Source: an uncultured Gammaproteobacteria bacterium (lineage in GTDB: Bacteria; Patescibacteriota; Patescibacteriia; Magasanikbacterales; UBA922). From it: DNA of 64,000 bases. The notes below the pieces were generated by a model. That model saw nothing but the letters and a program-made list of their open reading frames with translations. It had not been told where the DNA came from and searched no databases. The stretch is taken from positions 22,280-86,279 of the forward strand of contig CAYFPJ010000003.1 of assembly GCA_964344965.1 (NCBI GenBank). The letters run 5' to 3'. A program made the translations under genes and the position numbers. Each line of letters begins with the position of its first letter. Within the stretch, counting starts at the first letter, position 1. Positions 6,385 to 57,721 of the stretch are shown here, piece by piece.

Positions 6385-6759
6385 ATGGCAAATGTTACAA
6401 AACAATTGATCATTGATCGTTCCAGATATCTTAGAAAAAATCAGACTAGAGCAGAGAAGAAATTTTGGCGGTATGTTCGAAAGAAACAACTAGCTGGTTT
6501 AAAATTTTTGAGACAACACCCACTCTTACTAGATGTGAGTGGTAAGAAAATATTTTTTATAGCTGATTTTTATTGTGATGAATATAAATTGATAGTTGAG
6601 ATAGATGGTGGTATCCACGAACTACAAAAAGATTATGATGAGAGGAGAACTCTTGTTTTAGATGAAACCGGGTTTAGAATAATTAGATTTAGTAATAAAG
6701 AAATTTTTGGTGATATCGATAGAGTGTTAGAAAAAATTAAAAAATTTATTGAATTATAG
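6385..6759 (+). CDS. DUF559 endonuclease-domain protein (Vsr-like fold)
   Basis: ~120 aa. Motifs RAEKKFWRYVRK, ADFYCDEYKLIVEIDGGIH and RRTLVLDETGFRIIRF are typical of the DUF559 family. Confidence 0.6.
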   Translation: MANVTKQLIIDRSRYLRKNQTRAEKKFWRYVRKKQLAGLKFLRQHPLLLDVSGKKIFFIADFYCDEYKLIVEIDGGIHELQKDYDERRTLVLDETGFRIIRFSNKEIFGDIDRVLEKIKKFIEL

Positions 6760-6779
6760 TTGGTTTTATGCGAGTACGA

Positions 6780-6899
6780 CGCAACCCACCCTCTGTCTCC
6801 CTCCCTTAAAAAGGGAGGGAGGACGAGATAAGTAGTCTGTACTATTTAGTACGTTCCTCCTCCCTTCAAAAAGGGAGGAGGACAGGAGGTGGGTTGCGT
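6780..6899. repeat. composite palindromic element, family B copy 1 (outer stem cgcaacccacc/ggtgggttgcg enclosing two CCTCCC...GGGAGG hairpins)
   Basis: Seen directly. Its reverse complement is near-identical to 36580-36696. Confidence 0.7.
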
Positions 6900-6920: not shown

Positions 6921-7988
6921 ATGAAAACAAAAGACTTCAACTACAACTTACCACAAGAACTAATCGCTCAAAAATCAGCAGAGCCGCGTGATAGCTCGCG
7001 TCTTATGGTGGTGAATAAGAAAAATAAAAAAATAGAGCACAAAGTTTTTACAGATATTGTTGATTATTTTAAAGCAGGAGATCTATTGATTTGGAATAAT
7101 TCTAAAGTTTTCAAAGCTCGTTTGTTTGGTAGATTACTTTCGGCAGAAGGACAAGAACTTCGTGGTCATGATGACCCGGTTGAGATTTTTCTTGTTCGTC
7201 CGATGGAAAACATAGGTGTGTGGAAAGTACTTGCTAGGCCTGGGAAACATGTTCGTGTGGGTACAAAAATAGAGTTTGCAGAAGATTTTTATTGCGAAGC
7301 AATCATCAAAGAGCGAGATGGTACGATTCTTGTCCAATTTCCAGATGGTCAAGACATGGTTCGAGAGAAAGCAAATAAGTATGGGCATATCCCGATTCCA
7401 CCTTATGTAAAAGATGAGCCACATGAGTTGGAAATATATCAGACTACGTATTCCAATGATGATAAAGAGGGTTCAGTGGCAGCCCCTACTGCTGGTTTTC
7501 ATTTCACTCCAGAGCTAATTGAAAAATTGAAAAAGAAAGGAGTGGAATTTGCAGAAGTCACTCTGCATGTGGGGCTTGGGACTTTTTTGCCTATAAAATC
7601 AGAGCGAGTAGAAGATCACACTATGCATAGCGAGTGGGTGGAGGTGAGTGAAGAGACTGCAGAGAAAATAAATCTTGCTAAATCAGAAGGACGTCGAGTT
7701 GTGGCTGTTGGTACTACTAGTGTCAGAACACTGGAAGGAGTCGCTATGTTTGGAGATCACAATAAGGTGAGTGGGTATACCGGCGATATAGATATCTTCA
7801 TCAAACCTGGGTTTGAGTTTCAGATTGTTGACGCTATGATCACCAATTTTCATTTACCTAAGTCGACACTTCTCATGTTGGTTTCAGCTTTTGCCGGTGA
7901 TCGGGAATTTATGCTTGGGTGTTATAAAAATGCTGTAGAAGAGAAGTATCGTTTTTATAGTTTTGGGGATGGGATGATTATTCATTAG
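6921..7988 (+). CDS. queA: S-adenosylmethionine:tRNA ribosyltransferase-isomerase
   Basis: N-terminus FNYNLPQELIAQKSAEPRDSSRLMVV is typical of QueA. ~350 aa. Confidence 0.85.
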   Translation: MKTKDFNYNLPQELIAQKSAEPRDSSRLMVVNKKNKKIEHKVFTDIVDYFKAGDLLIWNNSKVFKARLFGRLLSAEGQELRGHDDPVEIFLVRPMENIGVWKVLARPGKHVRVGTKIEFAEDFYCEAIIKERDGTILVQFPDGQDMVREKANKYGHIPIPPYVKDEPHELEIYQTTYSNDDKEGSVAAPTAGFHFTPELIEKLKKKGVEFAEVTLHVGLGTFLPIKSERVEDHTMHSEWVEVSEETAEKINLAKSEGRRVVAVGTTSVRTLEGVAMFGDHNKVSGYTGDIDIFIKPGFEFQIVDAMITNFHLPKSTLLMLVSAFAGDREFMLGCYKNAVEEKYRFYSFGDGMIIH

Positions 7989-9457: not shown

Positions 9458-9532
9458 AAAAAACACCACCCTTCCTCCTAATTTGCATTCAAATATCTTT
9501 GGATGCAAATCTGTGAGTGGGTGGTGTTTTTC
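9458..9532. terminator. long nested hairpin (acaccaccc...gggtggtgt with an inner ttgcat...atgcaa) followed by a T-run; terminator for the methyltransferase gene
   Basis: Inverted repeats seen directly. Confidence 0.45.
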
Positions 9533-9580
9533 CCCTCTTCCCACCACCCGAGTCTGGCTCGGGGGTGGTTGGGGGGGGTT

Positions 9581-9736
9581 TTATTTTTTTCGACACCTCC
9601 TTTTGTCGTACCACACAGCGTAACGGAGTTGGGCGTACCTGACGCCCTCCTCCGCCACGAACAGGACGAGGCCGACAGCCGTTATGGCTGCGGCCACGGA
9701 GAAAGCTGCTGCCTTCTTCGCGACGCTATCGCTCAT
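9581..9736 (-). CDS. GC-rich mini-gene encoding a 51-aa single-TM peptide (MSDSVAKKAAAFSVAAAITAVGLVLFVAEEGVRYAQLRYAVWYDKRRCRKK); the ORF track omitted it because it is under 60 aa
   Basis: Translated by hand. Strong SD (AGGAAGAGGA) 6 nt upstream, a candidate -35/-10 upstream, and a GC hairpin plus T-run downstream. Local GC is far above the genome background. Confidence 0.3.
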   Translation of the reverse strand: MSDSVAKKAAAFSVAAAITAVGLVLFVAEEGVRYAQLRYAVWYDKRRCRKK

Positions 9737-9820
9737 TCCTCTTCCTGGGCTGGTTGGTTCGCTGACTTCGTGCCAGCGACATTGGTGCAGTATATCATTT
9801 GTGCATTTTTTTCAACAGTA

Positions 9821-9848
9821 AAAAAACCGAGTTGAGCTCGGTTTTTTG
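9821..9848. terminator. bidirectional terminator hairpin CCGAG-ttgag-CTCGG flanked by A- and T-runs
   Basis: Seen directly. Sits at the 3' end of the minus-strand transporter gene. Confidence 0.55.
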
Positions 9849-9862: not shown

Positions 9863-10531
9863 TTATTTGGTAGCAATCGGATTGAAGTCAGTATCTTTAT
9901 CAAAGTAATCTATTTCTTCTTTTTTCTTTAGCCAATTGACTACACGATAAGTCACTGGCAGCAAGACTACTTCTAGAAGGATTTTGAAAACATAGTTGGT
10001 GATCCAGATAGTCCAGAGGAGACTCCATGGCAAGATACCAGCAAAAGCAATCAATAAGAATACAGTAGTATCAAAGAACTGTCCGACAAAAGTAGACCCA
10101 ATGGCACGAAACCAGAATCTTTTACCATCCATCTTTACTTTCAGCTTAGCAAGAACGTAGCTGTTCATGAATTCACCAAGTAAGTAAGCAGCGAGACTAC
10201 CGAGGACTATACGTGGCACTACTCCGAGAATGGCATTGTAAGAATCTTGTAATCCCCAGATTGGATCTGCTGGCAGCATGCCAACTAGCCAGAAGGTGAG
10301 GACCATCAAGAGATTCATCGCAAATCCGATCCAGATGACACGGCGAGTACGAGCATAGCCATAGACTTCGGTCAAAATATCTCCAAAGATGTAGGCAAGA
10401 GGAAAGAGGATCAGTCCACCATCGAAGCTCATCCCATTCAAAATGGCGATTTTTGTGCTGGCTATGTTAGAAAGCACTAGAATTACAGCAAATGCTGCTG
10501 TGAGGAGGTCAAGATGTTTGAAACGGGGCAT
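9863..10531 (-). CDS. queuosine-precursor transporter, YhhQ/DUF165 family
   Basis: Polytopic membrane protein of ~220 aa with FPLAYIFGDILTEVYGY, characteristic of the YhhQ family. Located next to queuosine genes. Confidence 0.6.
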   Translation of the reverse strand: MPRFKHLDLLTAAFAVILVLSNIASTKIAILNGMSFDGGLILFPLAYIFGDILTEVYGYARTRRVIWIGFAMNLLMVLTFWLVGMLPADPIWGLQDSYNAILGVVPRIVLGSLAAYLLGEFMNSYVLAKLKVKMDGKRFWFRAIGSTFVGQFFDTTVFLLIAFAGILPWSLLWTIWITNYVFKILLEVVLLPVTYRVVNWLKKKEEIDYFDKDTDFNPIATK

Positions 10532-10948: not shown

Positions 10949-10955
10949 AATTTTA

Positions 10956-11102
10956 AATCTTAAAGTGGTTTTATTCCTCGATGCTTGCATCGAAAAGGTG
11001 AAGGCTGATATTGGCCGAAATAAATATTTACTGCCAATACCCCGTAGCTCTGCTACGGGGATGGCCAGATTAAATCTTACTTAAACCAAATTTACTTTTA
11101 TT
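10956..11102. repeat. 145-bp dispersed repeat, family A copy 1 (diverged copy)
   Basis: About 85-90% identical to copies at 11502-11646 and 38941-39085. The CCCCGYAGC..GCTRCGGGG hairpin is kept by compensatory substitutions. Confidence 0.8.
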
Positions 11103-11201
11103 CTTAAATTATTGAAATTATACCATGATTGACAAGTTTTGTAAATCTACATTAAAATATTAAAGTCCGATATAATTTTGTCTTTTTACCATCTGTATAA
11201 T

Positions 11202-11483: not shown

Positions 11484-11501
11484 TTTTGTATTTATTTTTT
11501 T

Positions 11502-11646
11502 AATCTTTAAGCGGTTTTATTCCTCGATGCTTGCATCGAAAAAGTGAAAACTAACATTGGTTGAAATAAGATTTTCTGCCAATACCCCGCAGCTTGCTGC
11601 GGGGATGGCCCGATGAAGTCTTACTTAAACCAAATTTACTTTTATT
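11502..11646. repeat. 145-bp dispersed repeat, family A copy 2
   Basis: Near-identical to 38941-39085. It overlaps the last 20 codons of the 473-aa ORF. Confidence 0.85.
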
Positions 11647-12972
11647 TTTTGTCGCACAATCGTCCAATTCAATCTTTAATATCTCTGCTAAGCCGTCGAT
11701 GCATGACTCAATGGTATCACATCTATGTGAAGGTGCTCCGCGTAATGTCCAGCCAAAATCTATTAATCCTTCTTCTAGTTCATATCTTTTATTATCAACG
11801 ACAGTTATATTTTCTTTTTCACCTACATAGCTTAACATTACCTCCTCCCCTGCCCTCAAAGCATCAAAAGCTCTCCTTTCGGTCAGGTCGAGTTTGAAAG
11901 GAGAATCATCAAAAATTTTCTCTCTCGCGCTTTGTTTTTGCTCATCACTAATCACGAAATTGTTTTTTATGATGTCTTCTGGAGAGACACGATCTCCTTT
12001 TTTTATTTTCCCATCGTGTTCAATTTCTAATTTGTAAAAATGAGAATCTGCTGTCTGTAGATAGACTGGCATGTCTTGCCTATTGGCGTAAACTGTCAAG
12101 TTGTGTGCGTGGGAAAGGACTTCTTCTCTGTCCTTGCCATACGTATCTGTTGCAATGGTAGTCCAAGTTGGATTTAAAAGATCTTCGTGCACATATATAC
12201 CAGCAATACTTGGATCAGATATGATAATTTCGTTGTAATCACCGTCTTGTTTTTGTGTGATTGCTGTTGATATTTCTTTTTCAATATCTTCGGGATCTAG
12301 GTATCCTGACATTCGTGCTGTTCCTCTGGCACTTGCACCTGCATCATGTCTATTTGCATTTTTTACTACACCGCCATTTAGTAAAACCCCCATTTTATAA
12401 AATGTTTTATCTTTGGTTTCCGGGTCATCTCTGACACTGCTAGTTGAAATTTCAGGGGCAAGTCCAATAAGTACAGAGAGCCGTTCTTTCCACGTTGCTT
12501 CTTTTAACATAACAGTATTTGCTCTTGTTTTAGTAGCTGCAAAGCCATGAGTCAAAAATATATTATATTTTTTGATTACTTCTTTTACATCGTATGTCTT
12601 ATGACTCTTTTCACGCTTTTCTGTGGTTAGAAGTTCAAGTTCAGACGCCATGACGTCTGTTCTATCCATTCCAGATGATACTCTTGTTACTTCATTAAAT
12701 TCTGTCTCTAATTCTAACAAGGTTTTTCTCTCTCTTTCAAGATCTTTAGATAGTTTGCGTATCTTAAAATAGTTTAATATTTCACCTAAAATTTTTATTT
12801 TTAATAGAGTAATCCTTTGCTCAAGATTTTCAATGTCCCTTCGTATTTGTTCAGAAAGTTTTTTGTCTCTTTCGTCTTTAGTATCTTTCCCTGTTCTCCC
12901 CATGACAGATTCCATACCATTTTTTAATTCTCTAGACGATATATGTGTATCTTGTGTAAGATTTTTATCCAT
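11551..12972 (-). CDS. hypothetical protein (473 aa): N-terminal coiled coil plus a globular C-terminal domain. Its C-terminal 20 aa are encoded by repeat A
   Basis: Long ORF immediately downstream of tgt (4-bp spacer), probably co-transcribed. No motif recognised. Confidence 0.45.
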   Translation of the reverse strand: MDKNLTQDTHISSRELKNGMESVMGRTGKDTKDERDKKLSEQIRRDIENLEQRITLLKIKILGEILNYFKIRKLSKDLERERKTLLELETEFNEVTRVSSGMDRTDVMASELELLTTEKREKSHKTYDVKEVIKKYNIFLTHGFAATKTRANTVMLKEATWKERLSVLIGLAPEISTSSVRDDPETKDKTFYKMGVLLNGGVVKNANRHDAGASARGTARMSGYLDPEDIEKEISTAITQKQDGDYNEIIISDPSIAGIYVHEDLLNPTWTTIATDTYGKDREEVLSHAHNLTVYANRQDMPVYLQTADSHFYKLEIEHDGKIKKGDRVSPEDIIKNNFVISDEQKQSAREKIFDDSPFKLDLTERRAFDALRAGEEVMLSYVGEKENITVVDNKRYELEEGLIDFGWTLRGAPSHRCDTIESCIDGLAEILKIELDDCATKNKSKFGLSKTSSGHPRSKLRGIGRKSYFNQC

Positions 12973-12978
12973 ATTATT

Positions 12979-14325
12979 TTATTGTGTCCACTCTTTCTTC
13001 ATTTCTAAAAATTTATTTTCTCGAATTTTTTCTCGGACCCTTTTCATCAAGTTTAACATAAAATGTAGATTGTGTATTGTGGCTAGTCTATAGGCGAGCA
13101 TTTCTCCTGCTTTGAACAGGTGATGGAGGTATTGACGAGAATGGTTTTGGCAAGTGAAGCAGGTGCAAGTTGGGTCGATTGGGTTGGGATCATTGCGGTG
13201 TTTTGTGTTGCGGATGTTGAGGGTATATTTTTTTTCTTTCAACGAAGAACCCCCCTTTATCCCCCCTACAAGGGGGGAAATATAGAGAGTACCATTTCTG
13301 GCGATGCGGGTGGGGGAGACGCAGTCGAACATGTCGACGCCGCGTTCGACAACTTCGAAGAGGTCTAGCGGAGAGTGTCCTACTCCCATAGTGTAGTGAG
13401 GTTTTTCTTTGGGAATTATAGGATTGACCCAGTCAAGGATTTGTTTGGTTGCCTCCATATTGTAACCAACACTTTCTCCACCAATGGCAATGCCATCAAA
13501 ATCAAGTGATGAAATGAATTTTGCGCTTTCTTCACGGAGATGTTTGTGATTGGCGCCTTGGATTATGCCAAAGAGAAATTTTTTATGAGTTGCAGACCCA
13601 AGAGACCCCTCCCGCACTCGCTTCGCTCGTGTCGACCTCCCCTCAGAGGGGAGGTTAACTCGCTGTAGTTTGGTATGTTCGATAAGACAGCGGCGAGCCC
13701 AGTCGTGAGTTCTTTCCATTGCTTTTTTTGTATATTTTTCATTAGCATCATCTGGGGTACATTCGTCAAAAGCCATGATGATGTCTGCTCCAATCTTGTG
13801 CTGTATATTTATTGCTTCTTCTGGAGTGAAGCGGTGTGTCGATCCGTCTATGTGGGAACGGAATGTGACACCGTCGTTGTCTATTTTGACTAGTTTTGTT
13901 TGATTGTTGGTTTGTGTTGGTGGGGTGTTACTCGATTCCAGCGAAGACCCCTCCCGCACTCGTTTCGCTCGTGTCGACCTCCCCTTATAGGGGGGGTTAT
14001 TTACTTGCTTTCTTACTTTTTCCTTACCAAGAGAGAACACCTGAAAGCCTCCTGAATCTGTTAGGACCGGCCGATCCCAGTTCATGAATTTATGGATTCC
14101 TCCAGAATCGGCAATTAGATTTTCTCCGGGTCGAAGATGAAGATGGTAAGTGTTGGCAAGAATGATTTGAGCGTCAATATTTTTCAAATCTTCGTTATCA
14201 AGAGATTTGACGGTGGCTTGGGTTCCGACTGGCATGAAGATCGGTGTTTCAACATCACCATGATCAGTATGGAGTATTCCTGTTCTTGCTAGACAGTTTT
14301 TTTCTTGATGTGTTATTTCAAACAT
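12979..14325 (-). CDS. tgt: queuine tRNA-ribosyltransferase, with three in-frame repeat-derived insertions (448 aa against ~370-385 typical)
   Basis: Tgt blocks FMPVGTQATVK, LTDSGGFQVFSL, IMAFDEC, GIAIGG, MFDCV and zinc site CxC..C are all present. Confidence 0.85.
   Translation of the reverse strand: MFEITHQEKNCLARTGILHTDHGDVETPIFMPVGTQATVKSLDNEDLKNIDAQIILANTYHLHLRPGENLIADSGGIHKFMNWDRPVLTDSGGFQVFSLGKEKVRKQVNNPPYKGRSTRAKRVREGSSLESSNTPPTQTNNQTKLVKIDNDGVTFRSHIDGSTHRFTPEEAINIQHKIGADIIMAFDECTPDDANEKYTKKAMERTHDWARRCLIEHTKLQRVNLPSEGRSTRAKRVREGSLGSATHKKFLFGIIQGANHKHLREESAKFISSLDFDGIAIGGESVGYNMEATKQILDWVNPIIPKEKPHYTMGVGHSPLDLFEVVERGVDMFDCVSPTRIARNGTLYISPLVGGIKGGSSLKEKKYTLNIRNTKHRNDPNPIDPTCTCFTCQNHSRQYLHHLFKAGEMLAYRLATIHNLHFMLNLMKRVREKIRENKFLEMKKEWTQ
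13246..13282. repeat. GC hairpin micro-repeat (CCCCCC-tacaa-GGGGGG) inserted in frame in tgt (encodes PLVGGIKGGSS)
   Basis: Same hairpin type as 49689-49709 and 37897-37917. Absent from the Tgt alignment recalled from memory. Confidence 0.6.
13604..13660. repeat. GC-rich palindromic element (agacccctcccgcactcg..gtcgacctcccct-cag-aggggagg) in frame in tgt (encodes SEGRSTRAKRVREGS)
   Basis: ~93% identical to 13944-14000. Related to the intergenic copies at 37979-38010 and 49789-49820. Confidence 0.7.
13944..14000. repeat. GC-rich palindromic element, second in-frame copy in tgt (encodes KGRSTRAKRVREGS)
   Basis: Direct sequence comparison with 13604-13660. Confidence 0.7.
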
Positions 14326-19639: not shown

Positions 19640-20250
19640 CAATTTAAAATTTAAAGACCCCCCCGTGGGATTAAATCCCCAGCTTTTAGGCTGATCTTTC
19701 AAGTCCAGGCATCCTGTGATAGTATGTCCGTATATGAAATACGAAAGAAAATCCTCCCATACCATATACGATCATAAGTACCACATATGCTGGATTACCA
19801 AGTATCGCTACCAGGTACTAAAAGGTCAGGTTGCCATTAGATTACGTGAATTAATCAAACAAGTTTGTAAGCAACAAAGCGTTGAGATTATCGAGGGTCA
19901 CGTCCGCCCAGAACACGTCCACCTATTCGTCTCAGTACCTCCACACATCTCCATCAGCAAGCTGATGCAACTAGTCAAAGGACGAACAGGCAGAAAGATG
20001 CTCCAGGAATTTGAAGAGCTTCGCAAGCGATACTATGGCGGACACCTTTGGACAAGAGGATTCTACTCTGCCACTTCAGGTAATGTAACCGACGAAACCA
20101 TCCAACAATACGTACATAGCCAAGACAAGAAAGAAATGAAAGATGACGAAACATTCCAAGTAACAGAGTAATCGTACTTTAGTGTCATTCATGACAAATT
20201 CCCACAGATTCTTTCGGCTTTAGCCGATAGTGGTTCAAATTAAAATTAAA
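19640..20250 (+). mobile_element. IS200/IS605-family insertion sequence (tnpA only); boundaries approximate
   Basis: Y1/HUH transposase gene, with subterminal hairpin-capable sequences on both sides. Confidence 0.6.
19716..20171 (+). CDS. tnpA: IS200-type transposase TnpA (Y1 HUH); the likely true start is 19734 (MKYERK)
   Basis: HICWITKYRY, HVHLFVSVPP (HUH) and the catalytic YY...G region. ~140 aa. Confidence 0.85.
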   Translation: MIVCPYMKYERKSSHTIYDHKYHICWITKYRYQVLKGQVAIRLRELIKQVCKQQSVEIIEGHVRPEHVHLFVSVPPHISISKLMQLVKGRTGRKMLQEFEELRKRYYGGHLWTRGFYSATSGNVTDETIQQYVHSQDKKEMKDDETFQVTE

Positions 20251-21175: not shown

Positions 21176-21203
21176 GAATTATGAATCAGGAATTATGAAT
21201 TAT
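21176..21203. repeat. left inverted repeat (ggaattatgaatcaggaattatgaatta) of the pair bracketing the four-helix-bundle gene
   Basis: It is the reverse complement of 21574-21601. A third related copy lies at 35112-35139. Confidence 0.6.
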
Positions 21204-21578
21204 TATGGAGGAAAAATTAAAAGTTTTACAGACCTACATGCTTGGAAGGAGGGTCATAGACTTGTTCTTATGATTTATGAAAGTGTTAAGTTTTTTCCAA
21301 AAGAAGAATTGTTTGGTCTCGTTAGTCAAATGAAAAGAAGTTCAGTTTCTGTGACATCAAATATTTCTGAGGGATTTAGTAGAAGTTCTTATAAAGATAA
21401 ATTAAGGTTTTACTTTATGTCACTTTCTTCGATTAGTGAACTGCAAAATCAAATTTTGATAGCTCGAGATGTGGGATATATCACTACAAAAAAATTTCAA
21501 GAATTAGCAACACAAAGTATAAAAGTACACAAAATAACTAATGGCTTGATAAAGAAAACAAAAACATATATATCATAA
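21195..21578 (+). CDS. four-helix-bundle protein (TIGR02436-like, the 23S rRNA intervening-sequence protein family)
   Basis: FTDLHAWKEGHRLVLMIYE...SQMKRSSVSVTSNISEGFSR is the family signature. AGGA RBS upstream of the ATG at 21195. Confidence 0.65.
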   Translation: MNYYGGKIKSFTDLHAWKEGHRLVLMIYESVKFFPKEELFGLVSQMKRSSVSVTSNISEGFSRSSYKDKLRFYFMSLSSISELQNQILIARDVGYITTKKFQELATQSIKVHKITNGLIKKTKTYIS

Positions 21579-26529: not shown

Positions 26530-29500
26530 ATGAAAAAAAGATACTTTGAGAGGGTGAAAAAAGCGATTAGCAGCTTTCTGGTATTTTCGATGTTGCTTCT
26601 TACTGCTGGTCCAGCAGTAGTAAGTGCGGCCACTAGTTTGGTGACCTATACTTTGCCAGATGTGACAATCGATCTCAGTGAAGGTGATAGCGATGTCACT
26701 ATACCTCTGACTGTCGAAGGATTTGAAGATATTTTGGGCGGACAATTATCTATAAATTACGACAGCACAGTTTTGGATTTTTCAGAAAATACTGATGAAG
26801 CAGTGCTAGGCCTAACTATCACAGATGGTGATGGTGTCTTGACTTTGGTCTGGGGTGATTTGGTGAATTTGGAAACTTCCACTATCGTTGATGGTGGTGT
26901 ACTTACCAATCTCGTCTTTGATATTCTTGGTGAAGATGGTGATAGTACTGAATTGGGAATAGTAGATCCACTTGCTTCTGTCGCAACACAACCTTTTCCA
27001 GATGCTCCAGAAATAATTTTACCAAGTGCTATTGCTACTGCTTCTGTAGACGGATCAGTTGTTTTGGAAGATAGTACTCTTGGTGCAGATGATATAGAGC
27101 AAGTTTCTTTGACATTTACCAACTTGAATGACAACGACGAAATTGAGCTCGGCGACACTCTTCAGTTTACAATGCAGTTTATGGTAGAGGATGGGCAAGG
27201 AGGATTTGTATACATCCCTGCTGAATTGCCTTTTCCAGATGGGATCGGTCTTAAGCTAACAAATTTCACTGAAGGTGTGACCAAGGTGTTGGATATGTCT
27301 TCCTCTCTTACTTTGGATTCTGACGTGTTTTCATATCTACTTGGATTAGATGATGATGGCTCTGACCTTACAATTGGTGAATATCGTGTTAGTCTCACTG
27401 GTACCCAGTCTGGTAATTTTCTTGCAGGTACGTTTAATTTGATCATCGATGAACCCCCTTATCCAGTAAGTAGTTTTCCAGAAGATGGTTCAATTGATGT
27501 CTTGATTGATAGCGAGCTGTATATTGATTTTTCTGAAGCAGTTGACACTTCTACTGTAGATTCAGACTCAGTTCAATTGCGACCGTTCTCAGATACCAAT
27601 GGTGATGATAAGGTTTCTGTAAGTTTTGAGTTTGAAGAAGGTGATACTAGAGTTGTTTTGGGATTAGGCGAAGTTTTGGATTATGATACCCAATACTACT
27701 TTTTTGTCGGTAGTACTGTAGAAGATCTCAAAGGTAATAGTGTGGGGACAGAAAATGCTTGGTATGGGTCTGATAAAGAAGATCATGAGTTCACTACCAT
27801 AAGTGAGCCAGATGTGATTGCTCCTGTAGGCACTGTTAGTTATTCTACAGAAGACGCCACCAATGATGATGTGGTGGCTACACTTAGCCTAGATGACCCA
27901 GAAGCAATAGTGACCAATAACAATGGATTATTCACATACACATTCACAGAAAACGGCTCCTTCACATTTGAGTTTGAAGACTTGGCTGGAAACAGTGCCA
28001 CTGCTGTTGCTGAAGTCAATAATATTGATAAAGTTGCTCCAGTTATTACTTTGAACGGGGAATCTGAGATCACTCTTGTTTTGGGGGCTACATATGTAGA
28101 GGAGGGGGCCACAGCTGCGGATGATGTCTTTTTGGGAGAGATGGAGATAGACATTGGTGGTGATGTGGTTGATACAGACATAATTGGAACTTATATTGTT
28201 ACATACAATACTTCTGATAATGCAGGAAATAATGCTGAAGAAGTGACTAGAACAGTTAATGTGGTAGAAGCGTTTCCAATCGGAGACCTTGAGCTTCTTT
28301 CTCCTGATCAAGTTTATCCTGGAGAAGATGTGATTGTGCAGACAGCCTATGATTTTTCAGGACAGGGTAATTATACCGTTTTCGATGACGGATCGTTCAT
28401 TGTGAAGGTGTTTGGTCAGGATGAATTTGGGGAGTATACCGAAGAGATATCAGCTGTTGTGTCTAACTATAGTAATCCCATAAATTTTGATTTTATAGGA
28501 AAACAATTTGTCGTTTCTGAAGATCTCTTTGATCCTGGAATGTACAAAGTATCTCTTATCAAAATCGATGGTCAAGTAGAAAACGACGCTGTATATTTTG
28601 AAGTTTTAGAACCACTCCCAATTGGTGAACTAGAGCTCTTGTCTTCTGCAGAGGTATTTTATGGTGAAGATATCGAACTTCTTACTTCTTATGATTTCAC
28701 AGAACAAGGAAATTATTCACCTGCTCATGACGGATCTTTCACTATTGAGGTATTCGGTCAAGATGAATTTGATGAGTACACAGAAGAGGTATTGATTGAT
28801 ATTTTTGTAAATGGTGGTCCAGGAGAAAGAGCGTTTACTGTTACTGAAGACCTCTTCGACCCTGGCATGTACAAAGTTTCTTTGGTTCAGAATGTTACTA
28901 ACATAGAAAACGACTCTGTATATTTTGAAGTTTTGGAGCCACTGCCTATCGGTGATTTGGAAATGCTATCTCCTGCCGAGTTGGAATATGGTGAAGACGT
29001 CGAACTTCTTACTTCTTATGACTTTGCTCAGCAAGGAAATTATTCACCTTCCCACGATGGCTCGTTTACCCTCAAGGTATTCGGTCAAGATGGTACTGGT
29101 GAATACACAGAAGAAGTGTCGGTTGATATATTCATAAATGGTGGTGCGGGAGAAAAAGGATTTACAGTAACAGAAGATCTATTTGATCCTGGTATGTACA
29201 AAGTTTCTCTTATTCAAATCAGTGGTCAGGTAGAAAATGATGCTGTGTATTTTGAAGTTGTTGACGACATTGCTCCTATTGGAACTATTACTTACTCTAC
29301 TACTGAGCTTACCAATCAAGATGTGGTAGCAACTCTTAGTGCAAATGAAGATATTATTATCACAAACAATGAGGGTTCGGATACATACACATTCACAGAA
29401 AATGATAATTTTGTATTCAAATTTGAAGATCTAGCTGGAAACACTGCTACGGCAATTGCTGAGGTGAATAATATTGATAAAGTTGCCCCAGTAATTGTAT

Positions 29501-31179
29501 TTAGTGATGGTACTGGAAATGATGTTACTCTTGAAGCTGGAGTAGATAGTTTTGATCCAGAAACTCAGACAGATGCCACTGACGACGCTTCTGACGTAAG
29601 TGTGTCTGTCTCTGGTTCTGTAGACACAAATGTCCTCGGTGACTATGAGATAACATATACTGCAGAAGACGGAGCTGGAAATACAGCAACTCTTGTCCAG
29701 ACTGTTCATGTGGTTGATACTATAGATCCTGTTGTCACATTGAATGGAGATTCAGAAGTTACCATTACAACTGGTGATGACTATGAAGAATTGGGTGCTA
29801 CAGCGATAGATAGCTTTGAGGGCGATCTCGATGTGACAATTACTTTGCCAGACGATTTTGATACTGACACTGCAGGGGTTTATGAAATAACTTATAGTGC
29901 AGAAGATTCTACTGGTAATAGAACTCAGGTAGTCAGAACTGTAACTGTAGAAGATCCTGACACAGAGGCTCCTGTTATTACACTGAACGGTGAATCTTCT
30001 ATTACTCTGACTGTGGGAGATACTTATACAGAAGAAGGTGCCACAGCCGCTGATAACCGTGACACTGTAGAAGTGATAATTGGTGGTGATACTGTCGATA
30101 CTTCCACTGTCGGTGTCTACATTGTGACTTACAATGCAACTGACGAATCTGGTAATGTAGCTGACGAAGTTACCAGGACAGTAACTGTAGAAGCCGCTCC
30201 AACTCCAGTTTCATCTGGCGGTGGGGGAGGTGGAGGTGGTCCTATTACCAAAGCTTATAAGCCGGCTGATTTAGGGATTGATTTTCTAGAAGATACTCTT
30301 GATTTGGAAGCTGATAATGTAGAGTTACAACTCTCAGCAGACAGCAAAGCTAGCCAAATGGCTATCAGTGAAAATGAAAATTTCAGTGGTGTAATCTGGC
30401 AAGATTTCTCAGAGTCATTGACTTGGGATTTGGAAGACGGAGTGAGTGGTGATGTGACAGTATATGCCAAGTTCAGAACTGGTAAAGGGGAAGTAAGCAG
30501 TGTTGTTTCAGATACTATTACAATCAATCCATTCGTACCACAAGTTTTGGGTGAGAAGATTACTGATTGTCCTCTAGACATTGGTAGTGCTTACAAGCAT
30601 CCTGGACATAGTGGTGTCTGGTTTATTACCACCGATGAATTTGATGCAGAGAATACCAGCTGTGCTCGCCGAGCTTTCAAGAATGCAGATATTTATGATT
30701 CATATGGCTTGGTGCGTTGGAGTGATGTCAATGTGGTCTCTCAATCAGAATTGGAAGAAGTCGTAGAGCACACCATTCCATTCATCGAATGGGGGACTGA
30801 ACGTACTTATCTTCACGGAGATTTGGTGAAGACTCCAAGTGATAGTAAGGTCTATATGCTTCTAGATGGTAAGAAGCATCCAATATCCTCTGGAGAAGTG
30901 TTCAAGGATCTTGGTCTAGAGTGGAGCTCTATCGTCGATGTATCCAGTGATGTTCTTGTGAGTTATCCTACAGGATCAGAGATCGATGGTATTGGTTCTC
31001 TGCCAGAAGGAACACTTTTCATGTACGAAGGTGCTCCAGAAGTATATAAGCTAGAAGATGGTAAGCAAAGAAAGATAAAGGATACTACAGCATTCAAAGC
31101 AAATGGATTTAGCTGGGCTGGTGTAGTAGTTCTCCCTGCTGATCATACACCATTTACAACTGGTGAAGAGATTCAGTAA
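26530..31179 (+). CDS. very large secreted surface protein (1549 aa) with DUF5011/Ig-like domains and three internal ~110-aa tandem repeats
   Basis: Signal peptide. Repeated TLNGxSxxTxxxGxxYxExGATAxD blocks (DUF5011-like). Poly-Gly linker. Confidence 0.65.
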   Translation: MKKRYFERVKKAISSFLVFSMLLLTAGPAVVSAATSLVTYTLPDVTIDLSEGDSDVTIPLTVEGFEDILGGQLSINYDSTVLDFSENTDEAVLGLTITDGDGVLTLVWGDLVNLETSTIVDGGVLTNLVFDILGEDGDSTELGIVDPLASVATQPFPDAPEIILPSAIATASVDGSVVLEDSTLGADDIEQVSLTFTNLNDNDEIELGDTLQFTMQFMVEDGQGGFVYIPAELPFPDGIGLKLTNFTEGVTKVLDMSSSLTLDSDVFSYLLGLDDDGSDLTIGEYRVSLTGTQSGNFLAGTFNLIIDEPPYPVSSFPEDGSIDVLIDSELYIDFSEAVDTSTVDSDSVQLRPFSDTNGDDKVSVSFEFEEGDTRVVLGLGEVLDYDTQYYFFVGSTVEDLKGNSVGTENAWYGSDKEDHEFTTISEPDVIAPVGTVSYSTEDATNDDVVATLSLDDPEAIVTNNNGLFTYTFTENGSFTFEFEDLAGNSATAVAEVNNIDKVAPVITLNGESEITLVLGATYVEEGATAADDVFLGEMEIDIGGDVVDTDIIGTYIVTYNTSDNAGNNAEEVTRTVNVVEAFPIGDLELLSPDQVYPGEDVIVQTAYDFSGQGNYTVFDDGSFIVKVFGQDEFGEYTEEISAVVSNYSNPINFDFIGKQFVVSEDLFDPGMYKVSLIKIDGQVENDAVYFEVLEPLPIGELELLSSAEVFYGEDIELLTSYDFTEQGNYSPAHDGSFTIEVFGQDEFDEYTEEVLIDIFVNGGPGERAFTVTEDLFDPGMYKVSLVQNVTNIENDSVYFEVLEPLPIGDLEMLSPAELEYGEDVELLTSYDFAQQGNYSPSHDGSFTLKVFGQDGTGEYTEEVSVDIFINGGAGEKGFTVTEDLFDPGMYKVSLIQISGQVENDAVYFEVVDDIAPIGTITYSTTELTNQDVVATLSANEDIIITNNEGSDTYTFTENDNFVFKFEDLAGNTATAIAEVNNIDKVAPVIVFSDGTGNDVTLEAGVDSFDPETQTDATDDASDVSVSVSGSVDTNVLGDYEITYTAEDGAGNTATLVQTVHVVDTIDPVVTLNGDSEVTITTGDDYEELGATAIDSFEGDLDVTITLPDDFDTDTAGVYEITYSAEDSTGNRTQVVRTVTVEDPDTEAPVITLNGESSITLTVGDTYTEEGATAADNRDTVEVIIGGDTVDTSTVGVYIVTYNATDESGNVADEVTRTVTVEAAPTPVSSGGGGGGGGPITKAYKPADLGIDFLEDTLDLEADNVELQLSADSKASQMAISENENFSGVIWQDFSESLTWDLEDGVSGDVTVYAKFRTGKGEVSSVVSDTITINPFVPQVLGEKITDCPLDIGSAYKHPGHSGVWFITTDEFDAENTSCARRAFKNADIYDSYGLVRWSDVNVVSQSELEEVVEHTIPFIEWGTERTYLHGDLVKTPSDSKVYMLLDGKKHPISSGEVFKDLGLEWSSIVDVSSDVLVSYPTGSEIDGIGSLPEGTLFMYEGAPEVYKLEDGKQRKIKDTTAFKANGFSWAGVVVLPADHTPFTTGEEIQ
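28270..29262 (+). repeat. three tandem ~325-bp intragenic repeats (units beginning PIGxLExLSx...)
   Basis: Units 28270-28610, 28611-28939 and 28940-29262 are ~75-85% identical at the protein level. Confidence 0.7.
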
Positions 31180-36541: not shown

Positions 36542-36572
36542 AAAAACTCCTGCTGATTGTGGGAGTTTTTTT
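36542..36572 (+). terminator. terminator ACTCC-tgctgattgtg-GGAGT plus T-run; a near-identical copy lies at 37856-37887
   Basis: Seen directly. Confidence 0.55.
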
Positions 36573-36579
36573 ACTACCA

Positions 36580-36696
36580 CGCAACCCACCTCCTGTCCTC
36601 CTCCCTTAAAAAAGGAGGAGGAACTTGCTGAATAGTAAATACTTATTAGAACGTCCTCCCTCCCTAATAAGGGAGGGAGACAGAGGGTGGGTTGCG
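36580..36696. repeat. composite palindromic element, family B copy 2 (inverted orientation relative to copy 1)
   Basis: cgcaacccacc...ggtgggttgcg outer stem with CCTCCTCCC/GGAGGAGG and CCTCCCTCCC/GGGAGGGAG inner hairpins. Confidence 0.7.
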
Positions 36697-36800
36697 TGAT
36701 AGCATCAAAATCCCTTGCAACACCCTCTTCTCCATGTGGACAACTTTCTTGACAGTACTATCCTATAGGTCTAAACTAAAAATAGATTATATTAATCAAT

Positions 36801-36974: not shown

Positions 36975-37544
36975 CTAGGTTCAAATAGCATTACACATCC
37001 CGGTAAAATGGGATGTTTTTTATTAGAGATTAAGTACATTTGTAGATAATAGCAGGAACCCTCTCCCCTCGGCCTGAGCTCGGGACGAAGGCCAACTCCC
37101 CCTACTAGGGGGAGGGAAATATCGGATGATCGAGGTTTGCAAGGCTGATTAAGCTATGTAGACCTTGGTTACTTCGGTAGCCTAACCTATTGACAAATGA
37201 CCTGGATACTGGTAAGTATTCAGCAAGGTTGTGGGATTTTTAAGGAATGTTGGTCTGATATTCCTTTGAAATTTCTATAACCTTTGAATCATTTGTCATT
37301 TCCCCTCGTTCTTTCCAAGGAGAAATAAGCAGCATATGAATGCACATGTTCCCCACAAACGGTGGATTAGGCGTTGATGATTTCAAGCCGGGCGGAGGTC
37401 TTTGGTAGATTATTATAATAATCTCTAAAGATCACCGTCTGGCCGAGAAATTTTTCAAAGCCGGGCACCTTGGGGCCTCGCCCCGAAACCTAAGGGGTCA
37501 TCTCGGCCCCGCATTCGGGGCATTCGCTCCAAGGAGAGAGGTCC

Positions 37545-37829
37545 ATGACCTCCGACTTCAGCACCACCACCGCCACCACCGCCACCACCGCCACGGATCC
37601 AGTGGATCCGAGAGAGACCGCCGACCCTGACACCGTCAGGGGATGGAGATCCTGGTCCGCCTCAACCGAGGAGGGAGCCGGCGTCGCCGGCAGCGGTCTT
37701 GGCCCAGCTAGGGTCGTGGTAGGGGTGGGGGAGCGTGTGAGTTCCCCGAGATGTAGGTCGTTCGCGACCTGTCTATCTCGGGCGTCATTTCGTATGCTGC
37801 CCCACCTCTCTTGTTCATTTAAGTTTTAA
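37545..37829 (+). CDS. small ORF in a ~400-bp GC-rich patch (94 aa, starts MTSDFSTTTATTATTATDPVDP); doubtful
   Basis: Strong SD AAGGAGAG 6 nt before the ATG. Contains an (ACCACCGCC)x3 microsatellite. GC content is far above background. Confidence 0.2.
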   Translation: MTSDFSTTTATTATTATDPVDPRETADPDTVRGWRSWSASTEEGAGVAGSGLGPARVVVGVGERVSSPRCRSFATCLSRASFRMLPHLSCSFKF

Positions 37830-38077
37830 GTGGGTAGAAGAGGCGGATGATTTTGAAAGACTCCTACTGATTGTGGGAGTTTTTTGTATGAAAAAATTCT
37901 CCCCCTCTTAGGGGGAGTTAGAGGAGGTTCGTTGTAATGAGATTATCTGTCATTATGTCAGTCTTATAAAATTGGTATGCACCCCTCCCAGCCTCCCCTA
38001 AAAGGGGAGGAGATATTTTGTCTTGTTAAAAAACACAATTTGAAAACACCCCTCATCTCTGATAAAGTATTCACTAT

Positions 38078-38941
38078 ATGAATCATGACCTCTTCAAACC
38101 AACTCATCTCAAAGAACTCTGTCAAAAATACGATCTCACGCCATCGAAAAAATATGGACAAAACTACTTGATCTCTGACGCTCCGATCAAAAAAATGATT
38201 GAGGCAGCTGACGTAAAAAAGACCGATATTATAGTAGAGATCGGTCCAGGTTTTGGAGTGCTTACTTTTGCTCTAGCAGAAGGAGCGGGTAAAGTTTTCA
38301 CATTTGAGATAGAAAGGAAACTAGAAGAGTATTGGGATGATGTTTTGGGAGATGGAGACAAGGAGATAAGTAGAGATAATAATATAGAGATAATTTGGGG
38401 CAATGCTTTGAAAAGTCTTAAATCTTATGTCTTAAATCTTAAGTCTGGATACAAAGTGATTGCAAACTTGCCATACCAGATTACTTCCAATGCTTTGAGG
38501 ATAATTTTGGAGGCAGAAAATAAGCCAGAATCTGTGACTGTGATGGTCCAGAAGGAGGTGGCAGAAAGAATTGTGGCGAAGCCAGGGGATATGAGCCTAC
38601 TTGCTGTTTCAGTGCAATATTATGGTGGACCAAAGATTGTTTGTAAGGTTCCGAGTGGATCATTTTGGCCTAGTCCGAAAGTGGATTCAGCGGTATTGTA
38701 TATAGACACCTCAACACCTAAACACTTTAACACTTTTTCTGATGATGATTTTTTTAAAGTTGTGCGGGCGGGATTTGCAAATAAGCGCAAACAACTGTGG
38801 CGAAATATTAGTGATGGATTGAAGATTGATAGGGGAGAGGTGAAAGAAGTCTTGAAGAATGTCGTTGGTAATGAAAAAGCACGAGCGCAGGAATTGAGTG
38901 TAGAGGAATGGAGAGAGGTGGTATCGACACTAAATAGTTAA
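38078..38941 (+). CDS. rsmA: 16S rRNA (adenine1518/1519-N6)-dimethyltransferase
   Basis: YGQNYLISDAPIKKMIEAA, SAM-binding VEIGPGFGVLT, and NLPYQITS. Confidence 0.85.
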   Translation: MNHDLFKPTHLKELCQKYDLTPSKKYGQNYLISDAPIKKMIEAADVKKTDIIVEIGPGFGVLTFALAEGAGKVFTFEIERKLEEYWDDVLGDGDKEISRDNNIEIIWGNALKSLKSYVLNLKSGYKVIANLPYQITSNALRIILEAENKPESVTVMVQKEVAERIVAKPGDMSLLAVSVQYYGGPKIVCKVPSGSFWPSPKVDSAVLYIDTSTPKHFNTFSDDDFFKVVRAGFANKRKQLWRNISDGLKIDRGEVKEVLKNVVGNEKARAQELSVEEWREVVSTLNS

Positions 38942-39085
38942 ATCTTTAAGCGGTTTTATTCCTCGATGCTTGCATCGAAAAAGTGAAAACTAACATTGGT
39001 TGAAATAAGATTTTCTGCCAATACCCCGCAGCTTGCTGCGGGGATGGCCCGATGAAGTCTTACTTAAACCAAATTTACTTTTATT
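38941..39085. repeat. 145-bp dispersed repeat, family A copy 3 (abuts the rsmA stop codon)
   Basis: Near-identical to 11502-11646. Confidence 0.85.
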
Positions 39086-39092
39086 GTACGAA

Positions 39093-57578: not shown

Positions 57579-57704
57579 ACGAGTAGTGTGAATTAAAATT
57601 GATATTTTCCTTATTTTAGCAAAATATGAATTTTCCGCATATCTATTTTCTAAAAATATTTAGCTAAATTAAGCCAAACGAGTCTAATTCACACTACTCG
57701 TTAA
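57579..57704. mobile_element. 126-bp element with 17-bp terminal inverted repeats (ACGAGTAGTGTGAATTA ... TAATTCACACTACTCGT), copy 1
   Basis: 100% identical to 62363-62488 in direct orientation. Perfect TIRs and no coding capacity. Confidence 0.65.
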
Positions 57705-57721
57705 TTAGTGATTAGAAAAAT

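What the first reader, a model, noticed from the sequence alone, without database searches (positions are those of the whole stretch)
12979..14325. tgt carries three in-frame insertions of GC-rich palindromic repeat elements (RPE-like behaviour)
The queuine tRNA-ribosyltransferase ORF is ~65-75 aa longer than typical Tgt. The extra residues fall at three sites, each coinciding with a GC-rich hairpin repeat that also occurs elsewhere in the window.
- 13944-14000 and 13604-13660 are ~93% identical to each other. Each encodes ...GRSTRAKRVREGS... inside otherwise conserved Tgt blocks.
- 13246-13282 is a CCCCCC-tacaa-GGGGGG hairpin encoding PLVGGIKGGSS.
All three preserve the reading frame and keep the conserved catalytic and zinc-site blocks. 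This is how Rickettsia palindromic elements insert into protein-coding genes. I know of no description of it in a Patescibacteria-like genome.
Basis: partly seen in the sequence, partly recalled or inferred. Interest (0 to 1): 0.85.

Follow-up and report, generated by a model that had tools for sequence, protein, structure and literature searches.

The report
Palindromic repeats inserted in-frame in tgt
An otherwise normal tRNA-modification gene (tgt) of a Magasanikbacteria-type (Patescibacteria) bacterium carries three in-frame pieces of a GC-rich hairpin repeat family that also sits between genes and inside other genes of related bacteria, much as Rickettsia palindromic elements do.

Summary
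The tgt ORF (12979-14325, minus strand, 448 aa) is 66 aa longer than its closest, syntenic orthologue (382 aa). The extra residues fall at three sites (+34, +21, +10 aa), and each contains a GC-rich hairpin module.

- **Protein:** the catalytic Asp and Zn-site residues are intact. AlphaFold places all three inserts in low-confidence loops.
- **The 55-nt unit:** its two copies are 93% identical, and in the data I could search they occur only in tgt.
- **The module:** its core (C-box, spacer, CCTCCCCT-NNN-AGGGGAGG hairpin) recurs five more times between genes in the window. Four of these form two complete bipartite palindromic elements of 115 and 143 nt.
- **Other genes:** the same bipartite element lies in-frame inside an RsmB/F-type methyltransferase of another Magasanikbacteria genome.
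- **Scale:** 70 of 120 Tgt homologues and 50 of 120 RsmB/F-like homologues carry such inserts at the same loop hotspots, drawn from a shared peptide repertoire.
- **Age:** in two relatives the site-1 element is 92% identical in DNA while the surrounding gene is 70% identical. The element is therefore younger than the genes, or is being homogenised.

The Rickettsia-palindromic-element-like reading is supported and extends beyond this gene. How the elements move is unknown: no matching transposase was found. I rate this a new member of a known kind, of moderate interest.

The parts
12979..14325 (-). tgt coding sequence (queuine tRNA-ribosyltransferase), 448 aa, intact
   Evidence: ORF. Pfam PF01702 at E = 2.3e-146. 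Matches PDB Tgt at E = 3e-95. The public assemblies call it as a single gene. Catalytic and Zn-site residues are conserved.
13915..14016 (-). Site-1 insertion: 34 codons (aa 104-137) absent from the closest orthologue. It contains a left-type module with a 22-nt middle, plus flanking element sequence.
   Evidence: Codon alignment to L003/P0004. About 85 nt are homologous to the site-1 element of the P0074 and P0023 tgt genes. pLDDT is below 50 over residues 93-142.
13945..13999 (-). 55-nt repeat unit, copy in site 1. On the + strand it reads C-box ACCCCTCCC, 22-nt middle, hairpin CCTCCCCT-TAT-AGGGGGGG.
13591..13653 (-). Site-2 insertion: 21 codons (aa 225-245) absent from the closest orthologue
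   Evidence: pLDDT is below 50 over residues 228-244.
13603..13657 (-). 55-nt repeat unit, copy in site 2. It is 93% identical to the site-1 copy and is read in the same orientation and frame. Similarity to site 1 stops at the ends of these 55 nt.
   Evidence: As DNA the hairpin folds at -12.6 kcal/mol, z = -2.3.
13237..13266 (-). Site-3 insertion: 10 codons (aa 354-363) absent from the closest orthologue
   Evidence: pLDDT is below 50 over residues 357-362.
13243..13283 (-). Module in site 3. On the + strand it reads AACCCCCC-TTTA-TCCCCCCT-ACA-AGGGGGGA, the same C-box / spacer / hairpin layout. It encodes SPLVGGIKGGSS.
   Evidence: It aligns with the intergenic modules, although it was itself one of the sequences used to build that profile. 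P0065 carries SPLLGGIKGGSS at the same site.
37898..38012 (+). Complete bipartite palindromic element between genes, upstream of rsmA/ksgA. It has a left module (hairpin plus G-box), an AT-rich centre and a right module (C-box plus hairpin).
   Evidence: RNA fold z = -3.2.
49680..49822 (+). Complete bipartite palindromic element between genes, just after the 3174-aa gene. Its left module carries an extra internal hairpin (CCTGCC-GAA-GGCAGG).
   Evidence: It folds as hairpin A, a central stem pairing G-box with C-box, and hairpin B, at -71.4 kcal/mol, z = -6.7.
37053..37116 (+). Solo composite module between genes (C-box ACCCTCTCCCC, 27-nt middle, hairpin CTCCCCCT-ACT-AGGGGGAG)

Best explanation
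The three extra segments of Tgt are in-frame remnants of a family of small GC-rich palindromic repeat elements that is dispersed in Magasanikbacteria-type Patescibacteria genomes.

**The element.** The complete element is 107-143 nt long and has three parts:
- a left module: hairpin CTCCCCCT-NNN-AGGGGGAG followed by a G-box;
- a variable AT-rich centre;
- a right module: C-box ACCCCTCCC followed by hairpin CCTCCCCT-NNN-AGGGGAGG.

The G-box and C-box pair with each other, so the whole element folds into three stems. tgt carries single modules. Two of them have an extra 22-nt middle between hairpin and box.

**Shown.**
- The segments are absent from the closest orthologue.
- They lie in predicted disordered loops.
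- They keep the reading frame and contain no stop codons.
- They leave the catalytic and Zn-site residues untouched.
- Copies of the same family lie between genes in this window and in-frame in other genes of related genomes.
- The element DNA is much more conserved than the host gene around it.

**Inferred.**
- The elements spread as non-autonomous DNA. Only insertions that are in-frame, stop-free and in tolerant surface loops survive selection, which produces the hotspots.
- The inserts are translated as floppy loops and are roughly neutral.
- The most likely way they move is a trans-acting enzyme that recognises hairpins in single-stranded DNA (a Y1/HUH type, as in REP-RAYT or IS200/IS605 systems). 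This would fit the hairpin-plus-adjacent-box layout, the absence of visible target-site duplications and the one-sided orientation of the copies. I give this step only about 0.3-0.4.
- The site-2 copy is a 55-nt internal fragment of the longer site-1 element. It probably arose locally, by gene conversion or template switching 342 nt away.
For: **Lineage-specific insertions.**
- Codon alignment with the syntenic orthologue P0004 shows gaps of 34, 21 and 10 codons.
- P0004 is the sister of this protein in the core tree and has no inserts at any of the three sites.

**Loops with an intact enzyme.**
- pLDDT is below 50 only at the insert sites and two short stretches.
- Catalytic and Zn-site residues are invariant or nearly so.
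- tgt sits near queA and a Vut_1/YhhQ-type transporter gene, which suggests a working queuosine pathway.

**Dispersed family.**
- The composite motif matches 4 times against 0 expected, and the hairpin class 7 times against 0.01 expected.
- The window holds 8 modules.
- The ends of the bipartite element are conserved between genomes of 32-43% GC, while the centre varies.

**In-frame in other genes.**
- The L075 RsmB/F-type methyltransferase has about 45 extra aa exactly at the element, compared with PDB 1ixk.
- 50 of 120 RsmB/F-like homologues carry an insert at one hotspot loop.
- 70 of 120 Tgt homologues carry inserts, 36 of them at two or more sites.
- The two families share 16 identical 6-mers at their hotspots, for example HCEERGTSDEAIQ, SRDTSPS and LPLVGG.

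**Element younger than the gene.** Between the P0023 and P0074 tgt genes the 90-nt site-1 element is 92% identical (93% at third codon positions). The rest of the gene is 70% identical (43% at third positions).

**Same element in a distant clade without flanking recombination**.

**Not an assembly artefact.** The identical protein is found on three contigs from separate assemblies.
Against: - The exact 55-nt unit, with its 22-nt middle, was found nowhere except tgt.
- tgt is the only one of about 55 genes in this window with such inserts, and it has three.
- No target-site duplication can be seen.
- No transposase is flanked by these modules. The only Y1 transposase in the window is an ordinary IS200/IS605 member with unrelated ends, and it scores below the RAYT (REP-associated tyrosine transposase) cut-off.
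- There is no expression or proteomic evidence that the inserts are translated.
- The middle of the tgt units folds only weakly.
Confidence: 0.78

Rival explanations
1. Local origin only. The 55-nt unit is not itself mobile. One module entered tgt once, at site 1, and the second copy arose inside the gene by gene conversion, template switching at the hairpin, or ectopic repair. On this view the pair says nothing about genome-wide dispersal.
For: - The exact unit is seen only in tgt.
- The site-2 copy is an internal 55-nt fragment of the longer site-1 element, about 85 nt of which is homologous to the elements of P0074 and P0023.
- Both copies have the same orientation and frame.
- The same pattern appears in relatives: P0002 has one element in all three sites, and P0015, P0114 and P0082 each have one element in two sites.
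Against: - This does not explain where the first copy came from.
- It does not explain why the core module recurs between genes and in other gene families.
- It is compatible with the main explanation as an account of the second step only.
Confidence: 0.35
2. Adapted loop extensions. The segments are old, selected additions to Tgt, for example basic peptides that help bind tRNA. On this view their hairpin-forming DNA is incidental.
For: The GRSTRAKRVREGS peptides are rich in Arg and Lys. The same three loops are extended in many relatives.
Against: - The insert sequences differ completely between relatives (acidic, polar or basic), and the closest relatives lack them.
- They are predicted to be disordered.
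- Third codon positions inside the element are 93% conserved against 43% in the gene, which points to conservation at the DNA level or recent arrival rather than protein-level selection.
- The same DNA occurs between genes.
Confidence: 0.05
3. Not translated. The GC-rich hairpins are removed from the mRNA or skipped by the ribosome, as with the bypass elements of some yeast mitochondria. The protein would then be of normal length.
For: The hairpins are stable in the mRNA, at -19 to -25 kcal/mol.
Against: - All three inserts here keep the frame and contain no stop codon.
- So do the five module copies seen at DNA level in the tgt genes of P0002, P0023 and P0074 and the complete element in the L075 methyltransferase, and so must the many inserts seen only as protein. 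Removal or bypass would not require this. The caveat is that interrupted genes would be missing from the protein database.
- No Rfam intron or ribozyme family matches.
Confidence: 0.03
4. Assembly or chimera artefact at repeated sequence.
For: Contigs of this population often end near repeats.
Against: The identical 448-aa protein is encoded on three contigs from independent assemblies and runs. Relatives from unrelated samples show the same architecture.
Confidence: 0.01

Closest known systems
Rickettsia palindromic elements (RPEs)
   Same: Both are short palindromic repeats of about 100-150 nt, found between genes and also in-frame inside unrelated housekeeping genes. Both add surface peptides without destroying the protein. 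A 2024 review describes 44 integrations in R. conorii, many of them in-frame (PMC10969869).
   Different: - The host phylum is different, and I have no evidence of sequence relatedness.
- The elements here are modular, and often only one module (30-55 nt) is present.
- The same few loops of one protein family are occupied again and again, in many lineages, by different family members.
- The same element often sits in two or three loops of one protein.
REP sequences / REPINs mobilised by RAYT (Y1) transposases
   Same: Both have GC-rich imperfect hairpins of 20-40 nt. Both occur as inverted doublets separated by a short spacer (the REPIN layout). Neither shows an obvious target-site duplication. 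Related motifs are found across many bacterial phyla.
   Different: - There is no GTAG or CGTC tag at the foot of the hairpin.
- No RAYT is flanked by the modules. The only Y1 gene in the window is IS200/IS605-type, scoring 147.7 bits there and 42 bits against the RAYT cut-off of 80.
- REPs are by definition extragenic, whereas these are frequently inside coding sequence.
Bacterial MITEs with modular structure (for example pneumococcal BOX, Neisseria Correia elements, cyanobacterial Nezha)
   Same: Both are non-autonomous and roughly 100-150 nt long, with conserved inverted ends and a variable centre. Both occasionally fuse in-frame with ORFs (review PMC10969869).
   Different: No target-site duplication was identified, and no parent IS with matching ends was found. 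The ends are hairpins themselves rather than simple terminal inverted repeats.
Mobile GC clusters and double-hairpin elements of fungal mitochondrial genomes (from my own knowledge; not checked here)
   Same: Both are GC-rich hairpin elements in AT-rich genomes that insert into coding regions in-frame.
   Different: Those are organellar and eukaryotic, and there is no sequence relation. I raise this as a lead from memory only.

Membership tests
Queuine tRNA-ribosyltransferase (bacterial Tgt) | TGT TIM-barrel domain (Pfam PF01702) | tested here: met
   E = 2.3e-146 and 487.9 bits against a cut-off of 26.3. Matches PDB Tgt at E = 3e-95.
Queuine tRNA-ribosyltransferase (bacterial Tgt) | Catalytic aspartates (Z. 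mobilis D102, D156, D280) and Zn ligands (C318, C320, C323, H349) | tested here: met
   These map to D90, D187, D334 and to C387, C389, C392, H418. All are invariant or nearly invariant in alignment A1.
Rickettsia palindromic elements (RPE) | Sequence homology to one of the RPE families, in a Rickettsia host | not tested
   No RPE sequences were available to align. The host is Magasanikbacteria-like. I do not claim membership.
Rickettsia palindromic elements (RPE) | Palindromic repeat of about 100-150 nt, found both between genes and in-frame in unrelated genes | tested here: met
   Full elements are 107-143 nt. They lie between genes in the window. They lie in-frame in Tgt and in an RsmB/F-type methyltransferase.
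REP / REPIN-RAYT system | GC-rich imperfect palindrome of 20-40 nt, often as inverted doublets | tested here: met
   Hairpins of 19 nt plus a box. There are two inverted doublets in the window.
REP / REPIN-RAYT system | Conserved GTAG or CGTC tetranucleotide at the foot of the hairpin | tested here: not met
   Module sequences show no such tag next to the stem.
REP / REPIN-RAYT system | A RAYT gene flanked by the repeats | tested here: not met
   The only Y1 gene in the window (19734-20171) is an IS200/IS605 equivalog and scores below the RAYT cut-off. Its flanks are unrelated to the modules. The rest of the genome could not be searched.
MITE | Terminal inverted repeats | tested here: met
   The left and right modules are imperfect reverse complements of about 33 nt.
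MITE | Target-site duplication, and a parent IS with the same ends | tested here: inconclusive
   No duplication is visible at the ends of the five aligned full elements or of the two 55-nt units. No parent IS was seen in 64 kb.
Integron attC site | R''/R' core sites (RYYYAAC ... GTTRRRY) bracketing an imperfect palindrome next to gene cassettes | tested here: not met
   Reading the element ends, the consensus is met only sporadically. L051 and L111 have ACCTAAC or ATCTAAC on one side. The window copies and L075 do not.

The most novel reading that the evidence does not exclude
The modules belong to a site-selective system that homes to hairpins, rather than to a randomly inserting repeat filtered by selection.

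**What points that way.**
- The same element sits at the same codon position and in the same frame in Tgt genes only 71-73% identical in their core, with insert-free lineages in between and no recombination of the flanks.
- The same element occupies two or three loops of one protein.
- Elements nest inside each other, as in P0011 and in the modules that carry internal hairpins.
- A 'C-box, internal hairpin, hairpin' motif is found across many phyla. Its internal stem changes sequence from copy to copy while staying self-complementary.

**What it would mean.** A conserved structured DNA or RNA signal, read by widespread and so far unidentified machinery, would be continually remodelling surface loops of housekeeping proteins in Patescibacteria.
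Probability: 0.2. Interest if true: 0.8.

Novelty: new member of a known kind. Interest (0 to 1): 0.55.

Why it matters
- **A second clear case.** It would give a second, independent and very widespread example, in a different phylum, of palindromic repeats being written in-frame into housekeeping proteins. More than half of the 120 sampled Tgt homologues and about 40% of the sampled RsmB/F-like homologues are affected.
- **Practical consequences for Patescibacteria genomics.** Many unexplained insertions and low-confidence loops in their proteins may be repeat-derived. Such inserts inflate apparent divergence in alignments and trees. The repeats also break assemblies.
- **A natural experiment.** The data offer hundreds of independent insertions at defined loops. 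These could show which loops of a TIM-barrel enzyme tolerate 10-60 extra residues, and how the elements move.

Tried and rejected
- **Peptide search for the inserted sequence.** A 70-aa concatenated query returned nothing and did not even recover the source protein. The result is uninformative and is not evidence of absence.
- **Rfam.** No family matches the modules or the full elements at the gathering threshold or at permissive E-values. The only hits were generic long-hairpin microRNA models on a different palindrome at 36571-36705.
- **Viral contigs.** Only 4 exact matches, so there is no sign of a phage vector.
- **RAYT or IS200 as the mobilising enzyme.** The IS200/IS605 transposase at 19734-20171 has unrelated ends and scores below the RAYT cut-off. 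No link could be shown.
- **Mosaic gene.** I tested whether the tgt loops were imported by recombination from the clade of P0074 and P0065. A sliding-window comparison shows P0001 closest to P0004 along the whole core. Rejected.
- **attC-like recombination sites.** I considered this because the full elements lie next to the high-GC islands. The core-site consensus is not consistently present. Rejected.
- **Triple helix or G-quadruplex.** The C-box is a mirror image of the hairpin's C-arm, so a triplex is formally possible. I could not test it, and part of the symmetry was imposed by my own search pattern. I leave it as an idea.
- **Extending the sequence of this genome.** Public contigs break at repeats and added only about 2.7 kb beyond the window.
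- **nhmmer profile of the modules.** It found no further decayed copies inside other genes of the window.
Full report
**1. The observation**

The ORF at 12979-14325 on the minus strand encodes 448 aa. It is a clear queuine tRNA-ribosyltransferase, matching Pfam PF01702 at E = 2.3e-146 and Zymomonas mobilis Tgt at E = 3e-95.

The alignment to the solved Z. mobilis enzyme breaks into three blocks. Query residues 102-144, 214-248 and 352-366 are left unmatched.

The two segments 13603-13657 and 13945-13999 are 93% identical over 55 nt. Their 39-nt core occurs exactly twice in the window, against zero expected from shuffled sequence. Both copies are read in the same frame, as GRSTRAKRVREGS. The third segment contains the perfect hairpin TCCCCCCT-ACA-AGGGGGGA and encodes SPLVGGIKGGSS.

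The full 55-nt unit is not found elsewhere in the window. Only its core module is.

**2. These are insertions, and the enzyme looks intact**

The best database relatives are Tgt proteins of Candidatus Magasanikbacteria and other Patescibacteria, ranging from 381 to 465 aa.

The closest is P0004 (382 aa), which is 85% identical over 341 core columns. It lies in the same gene neighbourhood, with a C39-like peptidase and an ECF sigma factor upstream. Codon alignment shows that it lacks 34, 21 and 10 codons at residues 104-137, 225-245 and 354-363 of the window protein.

The catalytic aspartates (D90, D187, D334) and the Zn ligands (C387, C389, C392, H418) are conserved.

An AlphaFold model built on 29 homologues is confident over the barrel. 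It drops below pLDDT 50 at residues 93-142, 228-244 and 357-362, which are the three inserts, and otherwise only at two short stretches, 35-39 and 61-64.

The identical protein is encoded on three contigs from separate assemblies, so this is not an assembly artefact. queA and a Vut_1/YhhQ-type transporter gene lie nearby, which fits a working queuosine pathway.

**3. Anatomy of the repeat**

Read on the plus strand, which is antisense to tgt, all three inserts share one layout:

- a C-rich box (ACCCCTCCC, or ACCCCCC in site 3);
- a spacer;
- a hairpin whose 5' arm is again C-rich (CCTCCCCT-NNN-AGGGGAGG).

In sites 1 and 2 the spacer is a 22-nt middle that folds only weakly.

The composite motif occurs four times in the window against zero expected. 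Two copies are in tgt and two lie between genes, at 37981-38010 and 49791-49820. The hairpin class occurs seven times against 0.01 expected.

Each of the two intergenic copies is the right half of a larger bipartite element, at 37898-38012 and 49680-49822. That element has a left module (hairpin CTCCCCCT-NNN-AGGGGGAG plus a G-box), an AT-rich centre of 25-60 nt, and a right module (C-box plus hairpin). The same element, with nearly identical ends and unrelated centres, occurs in three other Magasanikbacteria contigs of 32-43% GC.

Folded as one strand, the G-box pairs with the C-box. This gives hairpin A, a central stem and hairpin B, with z = -6.7 and -3.2 against shuffles.

A profile of the modules finds eight copies in the window: three in tgt and five between genes. 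The tgt inserts are therefore single modules, or partial copies, of this family. The tail TCTTCG(C/T)TG after the G-box is shared by sites 1 and 3, and a related tail, TTCGTTG, follows the G-box of the element at 37898.

**4. Is this behaviour general?**

Yes.

In contig L075, a 367-aa RsmB/F-type RNA methyltransferase carries a complete element in-frame (SSPYQGELEGV...DPSQPPLVGEE). Against the solved homologue 1ixk, about 45 extra residues fall exactly at that place.

Among 120 RsmB/F-like homologues, 50 carry at least 8 extra residues at this one loop.

Among 120 Tgt homologues:

| Site | Homologues with at least 8 extra residues |
|---|---|
| Site 1 | 53 |
| Site 2 | 21 |
| Site 3 | 43 |
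| At least one site | 70 |
| Two or more sites | 36 |

The inserted peptides come from a shared repertoire. Sixteen identical 6-mers occur both in the Tgt sites and in the methyltransferase hotspot, including HCEERGTSDEAIQ, SRDTSPS, LPLVGG and SPYKGE.

Several Tgt proteins carry the same element in two or three sites. P0002 has it three times, and P0015, P0114 and P0082 each have it twice. One protein, P0011, appears to have one element nested inside another.

A SucC-like gene in L051 and L111 also contains a full element within its ORF. There the net insertion relative to a solved homologue is small, so I do not count it as a clean case.

**5. Age and inheritance**

The site-1 element of the window is homologous over about 85 nt, in the same position and frame, to the site-1 elements of P0074 and P0023. 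The site-3 peptide recurs in P0065.

These three proteins nevertheless belong to a distant clade, only 71-73% identical to the window protein over the core and ranked 107-119 of 120. The sister lineage and most near relatives are empty at these sites. A sliding-window comparison shows no imported flanks.

Between P0023 and P0074 the 90-nt element is 92% identical, and 93% at third codon positions. The rest of the gene is 70% identical, and 43% at third positions.

Either the element arrived after the genes diverged, at the same site, or it is kept uniform by exchange with other copies. Simple vertical inheritance of an old neutral loop is excluded.

**6. What remains uncertain**

The exact 55-nt unit with its 22-nt middle was found only in tgt.

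- It has two copies in the window, both in tgt.
- The scan of JGI metagenomes for the sub-family junctions returned only tgt genes of the P0023 type, one GC-rich contig and one chance hit.

Similarity between the site-2 and site-1 copies stops at the ends of the 55 nt, whereas the site-1 element extends further on both sides. Site 2 therefore looks like a partial local copy, made by gene conversion or template switching 342 nt away. I treat this as a rival for that one step, not for the origin of the inserts.

The mobilising enzyme is unknown. The only Y1 transposase in the window (19734-20171) is an ordinary IS200/IS605 member, scoring 147.7 bits there and 42 bits against the RAYT (REP-associated tyrosine transposase) cut-off of 80. 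Its ends are unrelated to the modules.

No target-site duplication is visible. Translation of the inserts is inferred from frame conservation only.

**7. A wider motif**

The exact composite motif occurs in more than 118 contigs from many phyla (Alpha- and Gammaproteobacteria, Bacteroidota, Chloroflexi, Cyanobacteria, Armatimonadota and Patescibacteria).

Where the spacer is 17-25 nt, it is usually a near-perfect internal hairpin whose stem sequence differs from copy to copy, for example GGATCGCC-TTCG-GGCGATCC and GGACCGC-TTCG-GCGGTCC. The outer sequences were fixed by my search pattern. The internal hairpin was not.

This suggests a broad class of REP-like (repetitive extragenic palindrome) elements with a conserved shape. 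No Rfam family covers it.

**8. Comparison with known systems, and verdict**

In behaviour this is closest to Rickettsia palindromic elements: repeats of about 100-150 nt that occur between genes and in-frame in unrelated genes (review PMC10969869). In form it resembles REP doublets (REPINs) and modular MITEs.

It fails two defining REP/RAYT features that I could test: the GTAG/CGTC tag and a flanked RAYT gene. I made no test of sequence homology to RPEs. I therefore file it as working like an RPE, not as a member of that family.

Full-text searches found no paper that links palindromic or MITE-type in-frame insertions with Patescibacteria. The search covers only the held library.

This is a new member of a known kind, with moderate interest (0.55). 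It would rank higher if the recurrent same-site, same-frame insertions prove to reflect a targeting mechanism.

Noticed in passing
window 49900-50410, 57907-58643, 37453-37760, 9503-9835: There are islands of 54-67% GC in a 39.6% GC window. Two encode lipoprotein-like ORFs with a signal peptide followed by Cys (49960-50325 minus strand, 57987-58715 minus strand). None has a Pfam hit, and the two lipoprotein-like ORFs are not similar to each other. The islands lie next to hairpin modules or full elements, which may indicate imported or mobile cassettes.
   Followed up: partly
window 10951-11105, 11497-11649, 38936-39088: A repeat of about 150 nt occurs three times, and two copies are 99% identical. 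It contains the hairpins CCCCGCAGC-TT-GCTGCGGGG and TCGATGC-TT-GCATCGA. One copy supplies the last ~32 codons of the 473-aa ORF immediately downstream of tgt. Another starts at the stop codon of rsmA/ksgA.
   Followed up: no
window 6756-6899 and 36556-36697: A second kind of long palindromic element (~140 nt) has two internal CCCTCCC/GGGAGGG hairpins. The two copies are 71-84% identical. Its only Rfam matches are generic long-hairpin microRNA models, all below their thresholds.
   Followed up: partly
window 57579-57707 and 62364-62492: Two 129-nt direct repeats, 99% identical and 4.8 kb apart, bracket one high-GC island and a 959-aa CotH/LTD-domain gene. This may be a mobile or recently duplicated cassette.
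   Followed up: no
window 19650-20240: An IS200/IS605-family insertion sequence is present. Its Y1 transposase (19734-20171, plus strand, 145 aa) scores 147.7 bits for NF033573. Its own subterminal hairpins are unrelated to the tgt modules.
   Followed up: yes
window 21195-21578 (+): This 127-aa ORF matches the '23S rRNA intervening sequence protein' / bAvd-like four-helix-bundle family (PF05635, E = 1.3e-32). Such proteins often accompany diversity-generating retroelements, but I looked for no reverse transcriptase.
   Followed up: no
loci L005-L122 (many phyla): The motif ACCCCTCCC(C)-[internal hairpin]-CCCTCCCCT-NNN-AGGGGAGGG is widespread in Alphaproteobacteria and other phyla. The sequence of its internal stem differs from copy to copy while staying self-complementary. 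In some genomes copies occur as tandem direct repeats about 82 nt apart (L043, L078). No Rfam family matches.
   Followed up: partly
window 28479-29264: Three tandem copies of a 327-nt repeat (70-77% identical) lie inside the 1549-aa ORF 26530-31179.
   Followed up: no
window 6921-7988, 9863-10531, 12979-14325: queA, a Vut_1/YhhQ-type transporter gene and tgt lie within 8 kb. The same genes neighbour tgt in relatives (L003, L123), consistent with a queuosine salvage cluster.
   Followed up: partly
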